In this document: piece by piece, positions 8,676-13,685 of the stretch
How the letters are laid out: each line of letters starts with the position of its first letter
How positions within the stretch are numbered: the stretch's first letter is position 1
IMG/VR virus record: IMGVR_UViG_2541047939_000004
Reading direction: 5' to 3' (one strand)
Length of the DNA: 33,423 nt
Source: a virus
Taxonomy: Duplodnaviria > Heunggongvirae > Uroviricota > Caudoviricetes
The notes under the pieces: model-generated
Database searches by the model: none
Told to the model about the DNA's origin: nothing
The model's input: the letters and a program-made list of their open reading frames with translations, nothing else
Made by a program: the position numbers and the translations under genes

Positions 8676-9257
8676 ATGAACAACTCATGGTGGCAGGAAC
8701 TAATGCATTTTTTCCTGCAAGGAATGACACTTAAACAGTTGATTCATATGCTAATCATCCTGATCATATTGATTATTGTTATGCCGGTAAGCGTAAAAGA
8801 ATGGATAAACCTGCATAGTCCAGAAATCCTTCCTCATTACTGGATGTATTACATCCTGTTGTTTTGCGTTAGCTATGTGCTTAACGGCGTTGTTAATTCC
8901 GCTTATCACGCTGTGACTGAAAGAATTGAGGTATTCGCTGCTCAGAAGCGCAAATCTAAAGAAGAAAAATATGTGCAAGATTTGTTTGATTCGTTAACTC
9001 TTGGAGAAAGAGCGTATTTGGCATTCGCTGTAGCCGCTAATAACCAGCTACAAACGGAAAAGGGCGCTCATGAATCAATTTCATTGCTCAAAAAAGGACT
9101 CCTCGTTCGAAGGCCTCCTGCTGTTGGATATCCTGATACCGACCGTTTCGTTATCCCTGAAAGCTATAGACATGAGTGCTACATTAGGTTTGCCGGGAAG
9201 GCAGACAGCCTTATGGATGAACTTATCGCTCAGGATAAGCATGGCAAAAACAAGTAA
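8676..9257 (+). CDS. sieB: Superinfection exclusion protein B
   Basis: 193 aa MNNSWWQELMHFFLQGMTLKQLIHMLIILIIL... matches remembered lambda SieB; plus strand opposite to the pL operon, as in lambda. Confidence 0.85.
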   Translation: MNNSWWQELMHFFLQGMTLKQLIHMLIILIILIIVMPVSVKEWINLHSPEILPHYWMYYILLFCVSYVLNGVVNSAYHAVTERIEVFAAQKRKSKEEKYVQDLFDSLTLGERAYLAFAVAANNQLQTEKGAHESISLLKKGLLVRRPPAVGYPDTDRFVIPESYRHECYIRFAGKADSLMDELIAQDKHGKNK

Positions 9258-9273
9258 TTAGCAAATGAATTTA

Positions 9274-9546
9274 TCATCTCGCCGTCAGTTGTTTTGATTT
9301 CCGGTAGCCTGCCGCGTAAAGAGCTACGTTCGGAAGACAAGTTGAACCTTCATATTTTCTGGTCAACGTTGTCAGAGTTATCACTTCTGCTCTCATTGCT
9401 GGTTTGAGCTTGCATTGCAAGACCACTCGTGAAGGGGTTGGCCTGTGTAGCTTGTCGGAGCTGATCGCCTCCTGACTTTGCAGATTTGCGCGACGAGCTC
9501 TACGGCGAGAAGCTGCGGTGCCTTTAAATTCTGTTTTTCTGGACAT
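9274..9546 (-). CDS. N: N-like antiterminator (non-lambda specificity)
   Basis: ATG 9546 with SD GGGAGG; N-terminal arginine-rich motif KTEFKGTAASRRRARRA like phage 21/P22 N ARM; first gene downstream of pL/nutL. Confidence 0.65.
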   Translation of the reverse strand: MSRKTEFKGTAASRRRARRANLQSQEAISSDKLHRPTPSRVVLQCKLKPAMRAEVITLTTLTRKYEGSTCLPNVALYAAGYRKSKQLTAR

Positions 9547-9645
9547 GGATTCCTCCCGAATAAACTTTGGCGATGCAATCTCGAAGCTCCTCCTGAGACG
9601 GTTGCTTCGGCATTGCATCCCACAGCTTATGTGGTTGGGTGATCT

Positions 9646-9689
9646 GGCTTTTCAGCCACGTAGTCGAGAGTCGACGTTGTTTAAAGAGC
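9646..9689 (-). promoter_or_regulatory. nutL candidate (boxA plus two hairpins)
   Basis: Minus strand GCTCTTTAA (boxA-like), then hairpins TCGAC-TC-TCGAC... and GGCT-GAAA-AGCC; same architecture with covarying stems at nutR. Confidence 0.5.
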
Positions 9690-9729
9690 CTGCCAGTCTG
9701 TTCCATTTGGCTTCCAGCGTCCTGCTGAC

Positions 9730-9790
9730 GGTTAAATAGTACGATATGTACTTTACAAGATCAATACAATTTGTTGTAAGTTGGCGTGGT
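9730..9790 (-). promoter_or_regulatory. pL/OL region candidate
   Basis: 15-bp palindrome AGTACGATATGTACT (9738-9752) between -35-like TTGATC and -10-like TACTAT on the minus strand; AGTAC-containing sites recur in OR. Confidence 0.4.
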
Positions 9791-9950
9791 TTTTTATAAC
9801 GCTTTGTATTTAATAGTGTTGTTTTTTAGCGTGGATGTATTGCCTCGGCGATGTAAGGAGAGATCAGAATTGCGTGGTTTAGTGGGTTGCATCTATTTAT
9901 TTTTCAATAAATATAATTGGTTATGTGTTTTTAGGTGGGCGAACGTGAGG

Positions 9951-9977
9951 CAAAGAAAACCCGGCGCTGAGGCCGGG
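9951..9977 (-). terminator. Intrinsic terminator ending the cI-distal immunity operon
   Basis: CCCGGC-6 nt-GCCGGG hairpin (9960-9977) followed on the minus strand by TTTTCTTTG; 5 nt after the 9983 stop. Confidence 0.55.
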
Positions 9978-9982
9978 TTGTA

Positions 9983-10735
9983 TTATGCTGCAAGTCTCTT
10001 AACCCAAGTCTCTCTTTTGGAGAATGGTAGAACTTGGCTTGATTCATGGAAGAGTAAGGAGAGTTGTTGCATTTGATCACCAATTGCTTCGCTGTCTATA
10101 ACAACAAATCTGTTGTTATACTCCTCACTTGAAGCTTTAAGATCAATTAGTTTCCCAAGCAATGAGTAAGCACTATTCCAGCTTCCTCCGTGTTTCACGC
10201 TTGATGTAAAAACGTATTTAGGTATGTCGGTTTTTATTGTTACAGGGACGGTAATTTGATGTCCACTCAAGCCATATACGTTTTCACGAAGAGAAAGTGC
10301 GTCTCTAAGCTCTGTGTGATATAGATAATCAATAACCATACTTTCAAACTTTTCAGCTTGAACTGGCTGATACCAGTCTAACGACAAAGTTGATGCGAGT
10401 ATACCAGCTCTAATTATGTTCGATGTAATCGCACCGACATCCTTTTCTGTTGCCCAAGCAATGATTTCTCCTCGAGCATTGAGTTCTGCGCCTTCTTTAA
10501 GCAGTAATTGTCGTATCTCATCAAGTCGTTTTTTGGTAAGCGAGATCCCTCTTGCCTCCATATTCATTAAGGCATCGCATCTGTCACTAACTAAATACCT
10601 ACCATTGACTTCACGGATAAAGGCACCGACATGCTCTCCATCATCACAGTAAGTGAATGGACTGATAATTCTCAAGGTCTTGCCTATTGGATGGCATTCG
10701 AAACCTAGTTGTGAGATCACTGTTGAGCACATCAT
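9983..10735 (-). CDS. Uncharacterised protein, distal gene of rex-position cassette
   Basis: 250-aa ORF, ATG 10735 overlaps upstream stop (ATGA); no TM segment; no motif I recognise; AT-rich codon usage. Confidence 0.7.
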   Translation of the reverse strand: MMCSTVISQLGFECHPIGKTLRIISPFTYCDDGEHVGAFIREVNGRYLVSDRCDALMNMEARGISLTKKRLDEIRQLLLKEGAELNARGEIIAWATEKDVGAITSNIIRAGILASTLSLDWYQPVQAEKFESMVIDYLYHTELRDALSLRENVYGLSGHQITVPVTIKTDIPKYVFTSSVKHGGSWNSAYSLLGKLIDLKASSEEYNNRFVVIDSEAIGDQMQQLSLLFHESSQVLPFSKRETWVKRLAA

Positions 10736-11289
10736 ATTCCAAACCCCATTTGCCCCGACTCATCTTCAAGCGGTAAAGGTATTCTCCCAGAGTAAGTTAT
10801 GTTCAGATGTTTACAGAAGTAATTCCAATACCCTACCAGGTCATCTGGGTTTATGTCATCTTCGATTGGAAACGCTATTCTATCACTATAGTATCCAGCT
10901 TCTTCATAGTATACATGGTAGTGAGCACCGTAAATGATATCTTGGTACTTCGGATGATCGACCTTGTAACTATTCGTGTGTTTGTCAAAGTGATAGGTAT
11001 CTACCGCGAAAACCCTCTTGTTATGATAGAAAGCAATAATATTTATTTTAGGGTAAGAAATCGGGTCATCAGGTTCTGAATCCTGATCTGGTTTCCATTT
11101 CAGTTCAAACTTTAGCCCTTGTATAGGTATACAATCCTCATCCAAGGGGATGATATGGGCTTGTAGCCACATATCAGAGCGACTTGGTTTCTGTTTCCAT
11201 TTAACGCCAGAAAAGTTAACTATTTTTTTACAATAAAGTACTTTATCAACTTCTACTTGGCTTGGCTGATAATCATCTATTTTTGCCAA
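10732..11289 (-). CDS. Uncharacterised acidic His/Tyr-rich protein, proximal gene of rex-position cassette
   Basis: 185-aa ORF starting 39 nt downstream of cI stop with SD-like GGGCGG; acidic runs (DQDSEPDDP, EDDINPDD) and HYHVYYEE; no TM segment. Confidence 0.7.
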   Translation of the reverse strand: MAKIDDYQPSQVEVDKVLYCKKIVNFSGVKWKQKPSRSDMWLQAHIIPLDEDCIPIQGLKFELKWKPDQDSEPDDPISYPKINIIAFYHNKRVFAVDTYHFDKHTNSYKVDHPKYQDIIYGAHYHVYYEEAGYYSDRIAFPIEDDINPDDLVGYWNYFCKHLNITYSGRIPLPLEDESGQMGFGI

Positions 11290-11328
11290 TGTTTACCGCC
11301 CTGTAAATTGTAGATAAAAGTGGTTTCA

Positions 11329-11988
11329 TCACCCAAACGTCTCTTCAGGCCATTGGCTGGCGATAACTTTCCCCACAACGGAACAACTCTCATTGCATGG
11401 GATCATTGGGTATTGTGGGTTTAGTGGCTGTAGAAACACCTGACCGCTATCCCTGATCAGTTTCTTGAAGGTAAATTCATCACCACCAAGTCTGGCTATG
11501 CAGAAATCGCCGGGCTCAACAGCTTGCTCAGGGTCAACCAGAATTAACATCCCGTCAGGAAAGCTGGGTTTGGAACCTGTTGGTGCGGTCATTGAGTTAC
11601 CTTCAACCTCAAGCCAGAATGCAGAGTCACTGGCTTTTTTGGTTGTGCTTACCAATCTCTCCGTATCGCCTTTGGTAAAGGTTCTGAGTTCTGGAGAGAA
11701 CATCCCAGCCTGAACATGAGAAAAAACAGGGTACTCATATTGTTTTTTAACTGGGGCCGATGAGTATTCGCCAACAGGTGAAAATGTCCCGTCGTGGTTG
11801 AATGATATGTTATCAATACCAAGGTATTTAAACACCACACCAATATCACTAAGAGATGGATGACGAGATCCGCGCAACCAGTGTCCAATCCCACCCTGCG
11901 TCATACCTAGCTCTTCGGCTAACTTCTCTTGAGTTATGCCGAGCTCTTTCATTCTGGATCTAGCCAGTTCATACCATTTCATTTTCAT
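11329..11988 (-). CDS. cI: CI-type repressor (HTH plus S24 LexA-like autopeptidase), non-lambda immunity
   Basis: N-terminal HTH ([20 protein letters not shown]) and C-terminal S24 motifs (GNSM...K); divergent from cro across OR; start at ATG 11988 (or 11982). Confidence 0.85.
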
Positions 11989-12099
11989 GTCCTTATTATT
12001 ACGCTCTGTACTGGAACCATCCATGCACAATGTGTATTTTTACTTGTATTCGCAAAGTACATATTGTATTTTTTTATTCGTGTTTACTATGGAGGGCAT
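11989..12099. promoter_or_regulatory. OR operator / pRM-pR divergent promoter region
   Basis: 111-bp cI-cro intergenic region with several imperfect AGTAC/GTACT-containing palindromes (e.g. AGTACATATTGTA) similar to the OL palindrome; exact hexamers not resolved. Confidence 0.55.
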
Positions 12100-12315
12100 A
12101 TGAGCAACCTACGAAAATATCGAGAGTCACTGAATATCTCTCAAACAACACTTGCTAAGGCAGTTGGATGCACACAGGGAGCTATCGGACATTGGGAATC
12201 TGGTCGTCGCTTCCCAGACCTTAAAACATGCCGTGCTCTTGTTGCGTGCCTAAACAAGTTAGGCGCAAAAGTCAGTCTTGATGACGTGTTCCCGCCGGAA
12301 CACAAAGCCGCTTAA
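12100..12315 (+). CDS. cro: Cro-like repressor
   Basis: Internal ATG 12100 with SD GGAGGG; 71 aa with HTH (ISQTTLAKAVGCTQGAIGHWESG); the track ORF is an upstream over-extension through OR. Confidence 0.8.
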   Translation: MSNLRKYRESLNISQTTLAKAVGCTQGAIGHWESGRRFPDLKTCRALVACLNKLGAKVSLDDVFPPEHKAA

Positions 12316-12325
12316 TAAGCGGATC

Positions 12326-12370
12326 CGCTCTTTGTAACAACGGACATTCGTCCTACGTCGCTGAAAAGCG
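12326..12370 (+). promoter_or_regulatory. nutR candidate (boxA plus two hairpins)
   Basis: CGCTCTTTG then GGAC-ATTC-GTCC and CGCT-GAAA-AGCG hairpins; aligns with nutL with compensatory stem changes. Confidence 0.5.
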
Positions 12371-12456
12371 AGTTCCAAGATATCTGACCAACTAAGGCCA
12401 TATGCGTTTCCACGCATACCTTTCAACTAACTATTCACTATTGGAAATCTTAAGAA

Positions 12457-12753
12457 ATGGAAAGAACAAGTTACAGCAAACTATCACAGCGTGACGTTGA
12501 TCGCGCAGAAACAGATTTACTTATCAATCTGTCAGCTATTACCCAGCGCGGTCTGGCAAAGATGATTGGCTGTCATGAATCGAAGATAAGCAGAACGGAC
12601 TGGAGATTTATTGCTTCGGTCTTGTGTGCTTTCGGAATGGCATCAGACATCAGTCCGATTAGCAGGGCTTTTAAGTATGCGCTTGATGGACTCACCAATA
12701 AAAAACGCCCGGCGGCAACCGAGCGTTCTGAACAAATCCAGATGGAATTCTGA
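12457..12753 (+). CDS. cII: CII transcriptional activator (mosaic)
   Basis: C-terminal ...LTNKKRPAATERSEQIQMEF identical to remembered lambda CII; N-terminal two-thirds divergent. Confidence 0.85.
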   Translation: MERTSYSKLSQRDVDRAETDLLINLSAITQRGLAKMIGCHESKISRTDWRFIASVLCAFGMASDISPISRAFKYALDGLTNKKRPAATERSEQIQMEF

Positions 12754-12773
12754 GGTCATTACTGGATCAATCC
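12697..12773 (-). ncRNA. oop: OOP antisense RNA
   Basis: Minus-strand sequence ...GATTGATCCAGTAATGACCTCAGAA...GCTCGGTTGCCGCCGGGCGTTTTTT closely matches remembered lambda OOP including its terminator hairpin; overlaps cII 3' end. Confidence 0.65.
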
Positions 12774-12785
12774 ACAGGAGTCATT

Positions 12786-13685
12786 ATGACAAATACAGCA
12801 AAAATACTCAACTTCTGCAGAGGTAACTTTGCCAAACAGGAGCGTAATGTGGCAGATCTCGATGATGGTTACGCCAGACTATCAAATATGCTGCTTGAGG
12901 CTTATTCAGGCGCAGATCTGACCAAGCGACAGTTTAAAGTGCTGCTTGCCATTCTGCGTAAAACCTATGGATGGAATAAACCAATGGACAGAATCACCGA
13001 TTCTCAACTTAGCGAGATTACAAAGTTACCCGTCAAACGGTGCAATGAAGCCAAGTTAGAACTCGTCAGAATGAATATTATCAAGCAGCAAGGCGGCATG
13101 TTTGGACCAAATAAAAACATCTCAGAATGGTGTATCCCTCAAAACGAGGGAAAATCCCCTAAAACGAGGGATAAAACATCCCTCAAATTGGGGGATTGCT
13201 ATCCCTCAAAACAGGGGGACACAAAAGACACTATTACAAAAGAAAAAAGAAAAGATTATTCGTCAGAGAATTCTGGCGAATCCTCTGACCAGCCAGAAAA
13301 CGACCTTTCTGTGGTGAAACCGGATGCTGCAATTCAGAGCGGCAGCAAGTGGGGGACAGCAGAAGACCTGACCGCCGCAGAATGGATGTTTGACATGGTG
13401 AAGACCATCGCGCCATCAGCCAGAAAACCGAATTTTGCAGGGTGGGCTAACGATATCCGCCTGATGCGTGAACGTGACGGACGTAACCATCGCGACATGT
13501 GTGTACTGTTCCGCTGGGCATGCCAGGACAACTTCTGGTCCGGTAACGTGCTGAGCCCGGCCAAACTCCGCGACAAGTGGACCCAGCTCGAAATCAACCG
13601 TAACAAGCAACAGGCAGGTGTGACAGCCTGCAAACCAAAACTCGACCTGACAAACACTGACTGGATTTACGGGGTGGATTTATGA
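12786..13685 (+). CDS. O: Replication initiator O
   Basis: 299 aa, near-identical to remembered lambda O. Confidence 0.95.
   Translation: MTNTAKILNFCRGNFAKQERNVADLDDGYARLSNMLLEAYSGADLTKRQFKVLLAILRKTYGWNKPMDRITDSQLSEITKLPVKRCNEAKLELVRMNIIKQQGGMFGPNKNISEWCIPQNEGKSPKTRDKTSLKLGDCYPSKQGDTKDTITKEKRKDYSSENSGESSDQPENDLSVVKPDAAIQSGSKWGTAEDLTAAEWMFDMVKTIAPSARKPNFAGWANDIRLMRERDGRNHRDMCVLFRWACQDNFWSGNVLSPAKLRDKWTQLEINRNKQQAGVTACKPKLDLTNTDWIYGVDL
13134..13220. repeat. ori-lambda iterons (4 copies) inside O, followed by AT-rich tract
   Basis: Four ~19-bp repeats ATCCCTCAAAACGAGGGA / TCCCCTAAAACGAGGGA / TCCCTCAAATTGGGGGA / TCCCTCAAAACAGGGGGA, then A-rich run 13221-13262. Confidence 0.85.

What the first reader, a model, noticed from the sequence alone, without database searches (positions are those of the whole stretch)
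9646..9689. nutL and nutR share a boxA plus double-hairpin layout with compensatory stem changes
nutL (minus strand) reads GCTCTTTAA-ACAACG-TCGACTCTCGAC-TACGT-GGCTGAAAAGCC; nutR (12326-12370, plus strand) reads GCTCTTTGT-AACAACG-GGACATTCGTCC-TACGT-CGCTGAAAAGCG. Both hairpins keep pairing through different stem sequences (GGCT/AGCC versus CGCT/AGCG, and TCGAC versus GGAC/GTCC), which is covariation evidence for functional RNA structure. The second hairpin has a GAAA loop on a 4-bp stem, unlike the lambda boxB pentaloop, fitting the non-lambda ARM of the N protein here. The conserved first hairpin is not part of the canonical lambda nut site.
Basis: partly seen in the sequence, partly recalled or inferred. 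Interest (0 to 1): 0.45.

Follow-up and report, generated by a model that had tools for sequence, protein, structure and literature searches.

The report
Phage nut sites with tetraloop boxB
The two sequences are real antitermination (nut) sites of a lambda-like phage, built like the known H-19B sites (boxA, a spacer hairpin, then the N-binding boxB hairpin) but with a 4-base boxB loop that always goes with a shorter RNA-binding motif in the phage N protein.

Summary
The window is a lambdoid phage, identical here to Escherichia phages ev207, ev017 and PhiR57_1, and its N protein is of the VT2-Sakai type. One 55-nt module occurs exactly twice: after pL, upstream of N, and after cro, upstream of cII.

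Each site reads boxA, ACAAC, a spacer hairpin, UACG, then boxB. BoxB has a 5-bp stem, not 4, and a GAAA loop.

Across 79 distinct related sites both hairpins covary strongly: 96.7% of cells are paired against 70% in shuffles. I counted 13 spacer stems and 13 boxB variants.

The extra hairpin is not new. Phage H-19B nut sites are published as having two hairpins, and the window's nutR matches H-19B nutR apart from 4 substitutions and one loop base (GAAA versus GACAA).

What appears uncharacterised is the specificity class. A GNRA tetraloop at nutL went with a short N arginine-rich motif (ARM) in 163 of 163 loci. A GACAA loop went with an ARM 7 residues longer in 69 of 69. The nutL and nutR loop classes agreed in 181 of 181 pairs.

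In passing, one E. coli PICI satellite lineage carries arrays of nut modules of several specificities upstream of alpA.

The parts
9736..9764 (-). Probable pL promoter (TTGATC, 17 nt, TACTAT), followed by the conserved early-left leader CAGCAGGACGC
   Evidence: Read. The leader CAGCAGGACGC is shared with the pL regions of P22, mEpX2, H-19B and VT2-Sakai. It scores 8 of 12, below the threshold of the consensus scan, so this is inferred by position and homology.
9681..9689 (-). nutL boxA, GCUCUUUAA (rrn-type consensus with the extra U)
   Evidence: The consensus definition is in PMC2724277. 38 of 79 distinct related sites carry GCTCTT[TA] at this position.
9676..9680 (-). nutL ACAAC, near-invariant single-stranded 5' flank of the spacer hairpin
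   Evidence: ACAA is invariant (followed by C or T) in the 24 seed sites and nearly so in the 79 distinct sites.
9663..9675 (-). nutL spacer hairpin GUCGA-CUC-UCGAC (5 bp, -3.5 kcal/mol)
   Evidence: Pair probability is 0.74-0.98. Covariation. 13 different stems in relatives.
9659..9662 (-). nutL UACG linker, near-invariant
   Evidence: Invariant in the 24 seed sites. One CACG exception among the 79 distinct sites.
9645..9658 (-). nutL boxB, UGGCU-GAAA-AGCCA (5-bp stem, GNRA tetraloop, -6.3 kcal/mol)
   Evidence: Stem covariation. Loop class matches the N ARM class.
9274..9546 (-). N antiterminator gene, 90 aa from MSRKTEFKGTAASRRRARRANLQ (short ARM). The 114-aa ORF from 9618 is probably over-extended.
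   Evidence: Pfam PF25694 N_peptide, 9.7e-33. PHROG 271. 98.9% identical to VT2-Sakai N and 41.7% to H-19B N. All homologues start at M[ST]R[RK]T. GGGAGG lies just upstream of this ATG.
12100..12315 (+). cro; nutR starts 12 nt after its stop codon
   Evidence: HTH_3 match; ORF.
12327..12335 (+). nutR boxA, GCUCUUUGU
12337..12341 (+). nutR ACAAC flank
12342..12353 (+). nutR spacer hairpin GGAC-AUUC-GUCC (4 bp, -3.8 kcal/mol), identical to the H-19B nutR spacer hairpin
12354..12357 (+). nutR UACG linker
12358..12371 (+). nutR boxB, UCGCU-GAAA-AGCGA. H-19B has UCGCU-GACAA-AGCGA at the same place.
12457..12753 (+). cII, the first gene after nutR and the tR1-like region
   Evidence: Pfam Phage_CII, 7e-34.

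Best explanation
These are the nutL and nutR sites of a VT2-Sakai-type lambdoid phage.

Proposed mechanism. The sites are transcribed from pL and pR and act as RNA. The second hairpin is boxB: a 5-bp stem capped by a true GNRA tetraloop (GAAA). [quoted passage not shown] Its specificity class differs from the lambda and P22/H-19B pentaloops.

The first hairpin is the spacer stem-loop of H-19B-class nut sites. Its pairing matters but its sequence does not. It most likely folds excess spacer away so that boxA/ACAAC and UACG/boxB sit about as far apart as boxA and boxB in P22 nutL. NusA would then contact the remaining single-stranded spacer, and NusB-NusE would contact the rrn-consensus boxA. 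The assembled N-Nus-RNA polymerase complex reads through downstream terminators.

Shown here: position, structure conservation, and co-variation of loop class with ARM class.

Inferred: N binding, Nus factor contacts, and the distance-reducing role of the hairpin.
For: Position:
- pL, nutL, N on the minus strand; cro, nutR, cII on the plus strand.
- Exactly two copies in 33 kb.

Structure:
- Both helices covary, with 13 spacer stems and 13 boxB variants.
- Spacer loops vary freely in length and sequence (CUC, AUUC, ACAC, GUGA, UGGA, GUCC and others), as expected for a purely structural element.
- G-U wobble pairs appear on the transcribed strand (GAUUCG/UGAAUC, GGACG/UGUCC, UGGCU/GGCCA). They would be A-C mismatches on the other strand.

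boxB as the N target:
- A nutL tetraloop (GAAA or GCAA) goes with the short ARM RRR..R..LQ in 163 of 163 loci (38 distinct ARM sequences). GACAA goes with the long ARM RRRERLKAKALANGVLA in 69 of 69.
- nutL and nutR loop class agree in 181 of 181 pairs.
- The short ARM is joined to at least four different N bodies and C-termini, so the ARM and boxB travel together as a unit.
- Window nutR and H-19B nutR differ by 4 substitutions and the 1-nt loop indel from ACAA to the cII start.

Spacer role:
- H-19B nutR has two hairpins. The single-stranded spacer Gs and the boxB loop G are protected by N plus NusA/NusG (PMC3526286).
- NusA-SKK binds nut spacers, not boxA or boxB (PMC2724277).
- With the hairpin removed, boxA to boxB is ACAAC+UACG (9 nt at nutL). 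P22 nutL has a 10-nt spacer, CUUCGAUGAU.

From my own memory, not checkable in the held library: Neely and Friedman 2000 (title cited) named the H-19B spacer stem-loop the 'reducer'. They found that breaking one arm inactivates the site, that compensatory changes restore it, and that deleting it is tolerated.
Against: - No experiment on this N and nut pair was found. No solved structure of a relative exists.
- For naked RNA the predicted minimum-energy fold is not the two-hairpin form. It pairs boxA with the 3' half of boxB (-14.1 versus -12.0 kcal/mol at nutL; -12.3 versus -11.7 at nutR). BoxB formation would therefore need co-transcriptional folding or protein binding.
- The near-invariance of ACAA[CT]-G...C-UACG is stronger than a passive spacer needs. 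Some sequence-specific contact there is unexplained.
The association itself is unaffected, because the ARM was never part of the selection.
Confidence: 0.8

Rival explanations
1. The first hairpin with its conserved flanks (ACAAC-G...C-UACG) is itself a specific protein-binding element. It could bind NusA KH domains or the conserved HRPTxSR segment of N, and would replace boxA/NusB-NusE in this family rather than act as a passive distance reducer.
For: - The flanks and the closing G-C pair are essentially invariant in 79 distinct sites from at least six genera.
- 33 of 79 sites lack any boxA-like sequence.
- The single-stranded spacer Gs of H-19B nutR are protected by N plus NusA/NusG, and also by Rho.
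- All N proteins of this family share the HRPT.SR motif just after the ARM.
Against: - Stem and loop sequences and lengths vary freely, so the hairpin body is not read sequence-specifically.
- From memory, deleting the H-19B dyad symmetry had little effect (Neely and Friedman 2000).
Confidence: 0.15
2. The alternative fold, boxA paired with the 3' half of boxB around the spacer hairpin, is a functional switch. It would keep boxA and boxB masked until Nus factors or N open it.
For: It is the minimum-energy fold for both sites. In the equilibrium ensemble the boxB pairs have probability only 0.02-0.03 at nutL and 0.30-0.34 at nutR.
Against: - Across the family these helices are only 61-63% paired. 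They show almost no double-sided change, while the spacer hairpin in the same test is 93% paired.
- About half of the sites have no boxA to pair with.
- The complementarity follows automatically from GCUCUUU and GAAAAGC.
Confidence: 0.06
3. The dyad symmetries act at the DNA level or on the opposite strand, for example as a protein-binding palindrome or as a terminator for antisense transcription from sieB.
For: On the plus strand, GTCGAGAGTCGAC followed by GTTGTTTAAA is flagged as terminator-like. GTCGAC is a palindrome.
Against: - The stems are only 4-5 bp.
- The same test fails at nutR and in sites without boxA.
- G-U pairs occur only on the sense strand.
- The sites always sit in sense orientation in the early transcripts, in both operons.
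- The palindrome sequence is not conserved, only the pairing.
Confidence: 0.02

Closest known systems
nutL and nutR of Shiga-toxin phage H-19B (also 933W); Neely and Friedman 2000; Muteeb et al. 2012, PMC3526286
   Same: - Same order: (boxA), ACAA[CT], spacer hairpin, UACG, 5-bp boxB.
- The nutR spacer hairpin GGACAUUCGUCC, the linker and the boxB stem UCGCU/AGCGA are identical.
- The roughly 125 nt from ACAA to the cII start differ by 4 substitutions and 1 indel.
- The N proteins are homologous (41.7% identity, same C-terminus).
   Different: - The boxB loop is GAAA (4 nt) here and GACAA (5 nt) in H-19B.
- The N ARM here is 7 residues shorter (RRRARRAN-LQ versus RRRERLKAKALANGVLA).
- The window has rrn-consensus boxA at both sites. 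H-19B has GCUAUUUUC at nutR and no recognisable boxA at nutL.
- The nutL spacer stem differs (GUCGA/UCGAC versus GAUUC/GAAUC).
P22 nut sites and the P22 N-boxB complex (GACAA pentaloop with a GNRA-like fold)
   Same: - boxA GCUCUUUAA.
- 5-bp boxB with a G...A loop.
- N C-terminus ..ALYAAGhRKSKQ.TAR.
- From general knowledge, removing the extruded C from GACAA gives exactly GAAA.
   Different: - P22 has no spacer hairpin and does not match the model.
- Its loop is 5 nt.
- Its ARM is unrelated in sequence (GNAKTRRHERRRKLAIER).
Lambda nutL and nutR (boxA CGCUCUUA, A/U-rich spacer, boxB GCCCU-GAARA-AGGGC)
   Same: Same genomic positions, the same three-part logic, and a 5-bp boxB stem with a GNRA-like loop.
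   Different: - Lambda has an unstructured spacer and a pentaloop.
- Its boxA is non-consensus, lacking the extra U.
- Its ARM is different.
rrn operon antitermination boxA (GCUCUUUAACAA)
   Same: The window's nutL boxA plus its flank reads GCUCUUUAAACAA, one extra A relative to the rrn consensus. It has the additional U that makes boxA 'consensus'.
   Different: rrn antitermination needs no N protein and does not use its boxB hairpin.

Membership tests
Lambdoid N-utilisation (nut) site | Lies in the early transcripts: after pL and before N, and after cro and before cII | tested here: met
   Gene order from ORFs and Pfam. Site positions. Only two copies in the window.
Lambdoid N-utilisation (nut) site | boxA (consensus GCUCUUUA) 5' of boxB | tested here: met
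   GCUCUUUAA at nutL and GCUCUUUGU at nutR. Consensus definition.
Lambdoid N-utilisation (nut) site | boxB hairpin whose pairing is conserved and whose loop is specific to the cognate N protein | tested here: met
   The 5-bp stem is 100% paired in 79 distinct sites, with 3 covarying pairs. Loop class matches ARM class in 232 of 232 loci.
Lambdoid N-utilisation (nut) site | An N protein with an N-terminal arginine-rich motif is encoded just downstream of nutL | tested here: met
   PF25694, 9.7e-33. PHROG 271. The ARM lies within residues 1-22.
Lambdoid N-utilisation (nut) site | N- and Nus-dependent read-through of terminators | not testable with these tools
   Needs reporter or in vitro transcription assays.
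H-19B-class nut site (spacer dyad symmetry) | A stem-loop between boxA and boxB in which pairing, not sequence, is conserved | tested here: met
   4 of 5 pairs change on both sides; 93.4% paired. 13 stems.
H-19B-class nut site (spacer dyad symmetry) | Sequence homology to the H-19B nut region | tested here: met
   nutR to the cII start is nearly identical. H-19B sites score 55.9 and 48.1 bits with the model, which was built with them in the seed.
H-19B-class nut site (spacer dyad symmetry) | GACAA pentaloop boxB with the long ARM RRRERLKAKALANGVLA | tested here: not met
   The window has a GAAA tetraloop and the short ARM. It is a sister specificity class, not the H-19B class proper.
H-19B-class nut site (spacer dyad symmetry) | Independence from boxA, NusB and S10 (reported for H-19B; recalled from memory) | not testable with these tools
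   The window has consensus boxA at both sites, which suggests that NusB-NusE is used. 33 of 79 family sites lack boxA.
Lambda/P22-type boxB (GNRA-like pentaloop with one extruded base) | Five-nucleotide loop | tested here: not met
   The loop is the 4-nt GAAA at both sites. GAAA or GCAA occurs in all short-ARM phages.

The most novel reading that the evidence does not exclude
The ACAAC, hairpin, UACG, tetraloop-boxB cassette and the short ARM form a self-contained, portable and orthogonal N-recruitment pair. They would have switched from the GACAA/long-ARM pair by a 1-nt loop indel plus a 7-residue ARM indel.

Phage satellites may exploit such cassettes. One E. coli PICI lineage carries a variable tandem array of nut cassettes between int and alpA. 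The types are tetraloop, H-19B/P22 GACAA, lambda GAAAA/GGAGA and the mEpX2 type. This array could be how helper-phage N proteins switch on alpA and induce the island.
Probability: 0.35. Interest if true: 0.75.

Novelty: new variant of a known kind. Interest (0 to 1): 0.42.

Why it matters
N-boxB complexes are a textbook model for peptide-RNA recognition. All solved examples that I know of (lambda, P22, phi21; from memory) use loops of five or more nucleotides, and I recall the lambda and P22 loops mimicking a GNRA tetraloop by extruding one base.

This is a large natural family, found in Escherichia, Shigella, Salmonella, Citrobacter, Enterobacter, Klebsiella, Atlantibacter and Tatumella prophages. 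Its boxB is a true GNRA tetraloop and its ARM is 7 residues shorter than that of its pentaloop sister class. The two classes never mix.

Window nutR and H-19B nutR differ essentially by one loop nucleotide, which gives a clean, directly testable specificity switch. It also offers a candidate orthogonal N/boxB tethering pair.

The family-wide invariance of ACAAC and UACG around a freely varying hairpin points to a specific but still undefined contact in the spacer.

Practically, VT2-Sakai-type N controls early gene expression in Stx2 phages of E. coli O157:H7. The PICI nut arrays seen in passing would, if functional, explain how lambdoid helper phages activate alpA.

Tried and rejected
- Rfam. 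No family matches either site; the best hits in 9000-13000 are chance-level.
- PDB sequence search with N. No relative at E up to 10.
- Literature. No held paper describes the VT2-Sakai or 933W nut sites or a natural tetraloop boxB. Neely and Friedman 2000 is not held, so the 'reducer' details rest on my memory.
- Alternative boxA:boxB-3' fold. It is the minimum-energy fold, but it is rejected as a conserved structure.
- Antisense terminator or DNA palindrome reading of the spacer hairpin. Rejected because of weak stems, sense-strand G-U pairs and pairing-only conservation.
- IMG/VR search with the N alignment. It returned only 98-100% identical N genes and added little diversity, so pattern scans and the genome collection were used instead.
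- Klebsiella, E. albertii and C. meridianamericanus loci (L095-L100). No nutR of this type within the 5 kb of flank held; not pursued.
- AlpA homologues at 73-83% identity. They have no nut array upstream, so the array is specific to one PICI lineage and is not a general PICI feature.
- The consensus promoter scan did not call pL or pR. pL is assigned by eye and by homology only.

Full report
**Context**

Region 9200-12800 of the window is 100% identical to Escherichia phages ev207, ev017, PhiR57_1 and PhiR63_2. The layout is a classical lambdoid immunity region:
- sieB (8676-9257, +)
- N (9274-9546, -; Pfam N_peptide 9.7e-33)
- two accessory genes (9983-11289, -)
- cI (11329-12030, -)
- cro (12100-12315, +)
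- cII (12457-12753, +)
- O and P

The N protein is of the VT2-Sakai type. It is 98.9% identical to VT2-Sakai N but only 41.7% identical to N of H-19B and 933W.

**The observation**

Both strings are present at the stated coordinates.

Each site reads boxA (GCUCUUUAA or GCUCUUUGU), ACAAC, a short hairpin, UACG, then a second hairpin.

The second hairpin has a 5-bp stem, not 4. This outer pair covaries in relatives.

The shared pattern occurs twice against 0.00 expected by chance. A covariance model of the module, whose seed included these two sites, scores them 62.3 and 54.5 bits. The next best hit in the window scores 8.1 bits. Rfam has no family for it.

**The same architecture occurs elsewhere**

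The module is present at both nut positions of H-19B, VT2-Sakai, POCJ13, vB_SosS_Oslo, SF6 and 103203_sal5. It is absent from P22 and mEpX2, where boxA is followed directly by boxB.

It is also present in prophages of Citrobacter, Atlantibacter, Enterobacter, Klebsiella and Tatumella and in many IMG/VR contigs.

Constant features are ACAA[CT], the closing G-C pair of the first hairpin, UACG, and the inner GCU/AGC of boxB.

boxA is optional. Of 79 distinct sites, 38 have GCTCTT[TA], 8 are near-matches and 33 have nothing recognisable.

**Covariation**

| Alignment | Cells paired | Shuffled | Covariation score | Shuffled | Shuffles reaching it |
|---|---|---|---|---|---|
| 24 sites, MAFFT, not fitted to any structure | 94.1% | 69.0% | 0.621 | 0.150 | 0 of 500 |
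| 79 distinct sites, model-aligned | 96.7% | 70.2% | 0.629 | 0.136 | 0 of 500 |

Slid-register controls on the unfitted alignment reach at most 0.143.

On the 79-site alignment, four of five pairs of the first hairpin and three of five boxB pairs change on both sides.

I counted 13 different spacer stems: GGAC/GUCC, GUCGA/UCGAC, GAUUC(A/G/C)/..GAAUC, GGUGA/UCACC, GGCC/GGCC, GAAGAU/AUCUUC, GGCA/UGCC and others. There are also 13 boxB stem and loop variants.

Spacer loops differ freely in length and sequence. G-U pairs occur on the transcribed strand.

**The second hairpin is boxB, and loop size is the specificity determinant**

The N proteins fall into two ARM classes that differ by a 7-residue indel.

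| Class | ARM | Phages |
|---|---|---|
| Short | ..AA[SG]RRR[AE][RH]RA.-LQ | Sakai, POCJ13, SF6 |
| Long | ..SR[SA]RRRERLKAKALANGVLA | H-19B, Oslo, sal5 |

The association holds in every locus where nutL is followed by an N gene:
- GAAA or GCAA loops go with the short ARM in 163 of 163 loci (38 distinct ARM sequences).
- GACAA goes with the long ARM in 69 of 69 loci.

The loop class of nutL and nutR agrees in 181 of 181 pairs.

The short ARM is joined to at least four different N bodies:
- 90 aa with a P22-type C-terminus
- 120 aa with a P22-type C-terminus
- a lambda-type C-terminus (..GRQK.RGKSIPLI)
- a Klebsiella type (..AIYALGLQKRKKVTAR)

The ARM and its boxB therefore behave as a mobile specificity unit.

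The window's nutR and H-19B nutR are nearly identical from ACAA to the cII start. They differ by four substitutions and the single-base loop indel, GAAA versus GACAA.

From general knowledge, P22 GACAA folds like a GNRA tetraloop with the C extruded, so deleting that C gives the canonical GAAA. No solved structure of a relative of this N exists.

**The first hairpin is already known**

H-19B nutR is described as having two hairpins, a spacer hairpin and boxB. The single-stranded spacer Gs and the boxB loop G are protected by N plus NusA/NusG, and the spacer Gs also by Rho (PMC3526286).

[quoted passage not shown] The paper itself is not held. From memory, they called the stem-loop the 'reducer'. 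They showed that disrupting one arm inactivates the site, that compensatory changes restore it, that deletion is tolerated, and that H-19B N needs neither boxA, NusB nor S10.

My data fit that picture:
- Only the pairing is conserved.
- With the hairpin excised, boxA and boxB are separated by ACAAC+UACG (9 nt at nutL). P22 nutL has 10 nt.

NusA binds nut spacers rather than boxA or boxB (PMC2724277). The near-invariant ACAAC and UACG are the obvious candidates for that contact.

Unlike H-19B, this phage has rrn-consensus boxA with the extra U at both sites. NusB-NusE is therefore probably used here.

**Alternative fold**

For naked RNA the minimum-energy structure pairs boxA with the 3' half of boxB around the spacer hairpin:
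- nutL: -14.1 against -12.0 kcal/mol for the two-hairpin form.
- nutR: -12.3 against -11.7 kcal/mol.

Across the family these helices are only 61-63% paired, with almost no compensatory change. About half of the sites have no boxA. I treat the fold as a by-product of GCUCUUU and GAAAAGC being complementary. It does imply that boxB formation relies on co-transcriptional folding or on protein binding.

**Verdict on novelty**

The site type (nut) and the extra spacer hairpin (H-19B class) are known. Neither the held literature nor my memory contains a description of three things:
- a natural true-tetraloop boxB class
- its strict pairing with a 7-residue-shorter ARM
- the family-wide invariance of ACAAC and UACG

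I rate the finding a new variant of a known kind, of moderate interest.

**Noticed in passing: nut arrays in a PICI satellite**

The tetraloop pattern scan also hit L159. This is a P4-type integrase followed by a tandem array of nut-like cassettes of different specificities.

In intact copies the array lies between int and an alpA-like gene, on the alpA strand (L220 from E. coli EC4; L221-L226). The island has the int, alpA..., primase layout of Gram-negative PICIs.

The L220 leader contains, in order:
- a promoter-like site
- boxA-like GCUAUUUAACAG with the lambda-like boxB GCCCUGGAGAAGGGC
- a boxA, hairpin, UACG, CUGCUGAAAAGCGG cassette (33 bits with my model)
- boxA-like GUUCUUUAACAG with the P22-type GCGCUGACAAAGCGC
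- boxA-like GUUCUUUAAAAC with the mEpX2-type CCUGCCGAAAUGCAGG
- a perfect 15-bp hairpin before alpA

Other copies swap the GAAA cassette for GACAA, or carry the lambda GCCCUGAAAAAGGGC cassette. They have 3-4 boxA and 3-4 boxB motifs on the sense strand and none on the other strand.

AlpA homologues at 73-83% identity lack the array.

PICI induction in Gram-negative bacteria is said to require alpA expression 'activated by the helper phage' (bioRxiv 10.1101/2022.09.08.507074). No held paper links PICIs or alpA with antitermination.

The hypothesis that helper N proteins antiterminate into alpA through this array is untested.

Noticed in passing
L159:1480-1900 (+); L220:8992-9418 (+); L221-L226, upstream of position 1201: One E. 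coli PICI-like satellite lineage (int, alpA, antA/antB, ash, TOPRIM/DUF927 primase) carries a tandem array of 3-6 nut-like cassettes between int and alpA, on the alpA strand. The cassettes have different N specificities: a tetraloop type with spacer hairpin, H-19B/P22 GACAA, lambda GAAAA/GGAGA, and the mEpX2 CGAAAU type. A 15-bp hairpin follows the array. The composition of the array varies between otherwise identical islands. This may be how helper-phage N proteins switch on alpA. No held paper links PICIs with antitermination.
   Followed up: partly
window:9983-11289 (-): The two genes between N and cI, in the position of lambda rexAB, are a DUF1828 protein (250 aa) and a DUF6978-like protein (185 aa). 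They match the two components of the PADLOC candidate defence system PDC-M24 (B: 4.7e-10; A: 4.8e-4).
   Followed up: partly
window:9547-9618 (-): The 114-aa N ORF, annotated this way in VT2-Sakai AP000363, is probably over-extended at its N-terminus. All homologues start at M[ST]R[RK]T, GGGAGG precedes the ATG at 9546, and the ARM must be N-terminal. N is therefore 90 aa.
   Followed up: yes
window:9550-9640 (-): The leader between nutL and the N start codon folds into a long imperfect hairpin (GGGAUGCAAUGCCGAAGC...GCUUCGAGAUUGCAUCGCC). The z-score is -3.8 for 9540-9700. From memory, its position recalls the RNase III-processed N leader of lambda.
   Followed up: no
window:12308-12322 (+): A 6-bp hairpin, CCGCUU-AAU-AAGCGG, spans the cro stop codon immediately 5' of nutR boxA. 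On the minus strand it is flagged as terminator-like. It is shared with VT2-Sakai but not with H-19B.
   Followed up: no
L004:4818-4875 and L006:4843-4900 (+): Salmonella phages Oslo and 103203_sal5 have the long ARM and a GACAA nutR, but their nutL boxB is aberrant: GCUCCGUCAACGAGC, a 4-bp stem with a 7-nt loop. It scores only 26-27 bits.
   Followed up: no
L095, L096, L097, L100 (Klebsiella prophages): nutL of the tetraloop class is present, but no matching nutR was found within the 5 kb of flank held. Their N proteins end in ..AIYALGLQKRKKVTAR rather than the P22-type or lambda-type C-terminus.
   Followed up: no
L101, L105, L151, L191, L219: In these loci the short tetraloop-class ARM is fused to a lambda-like N C-terminus (..GRQK.RGKSIPL[IV]). 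This is a natural ARM and C-terminal-domain mosaic between the P22/H-19B-like and lambda-like N families.
   Followed up: no
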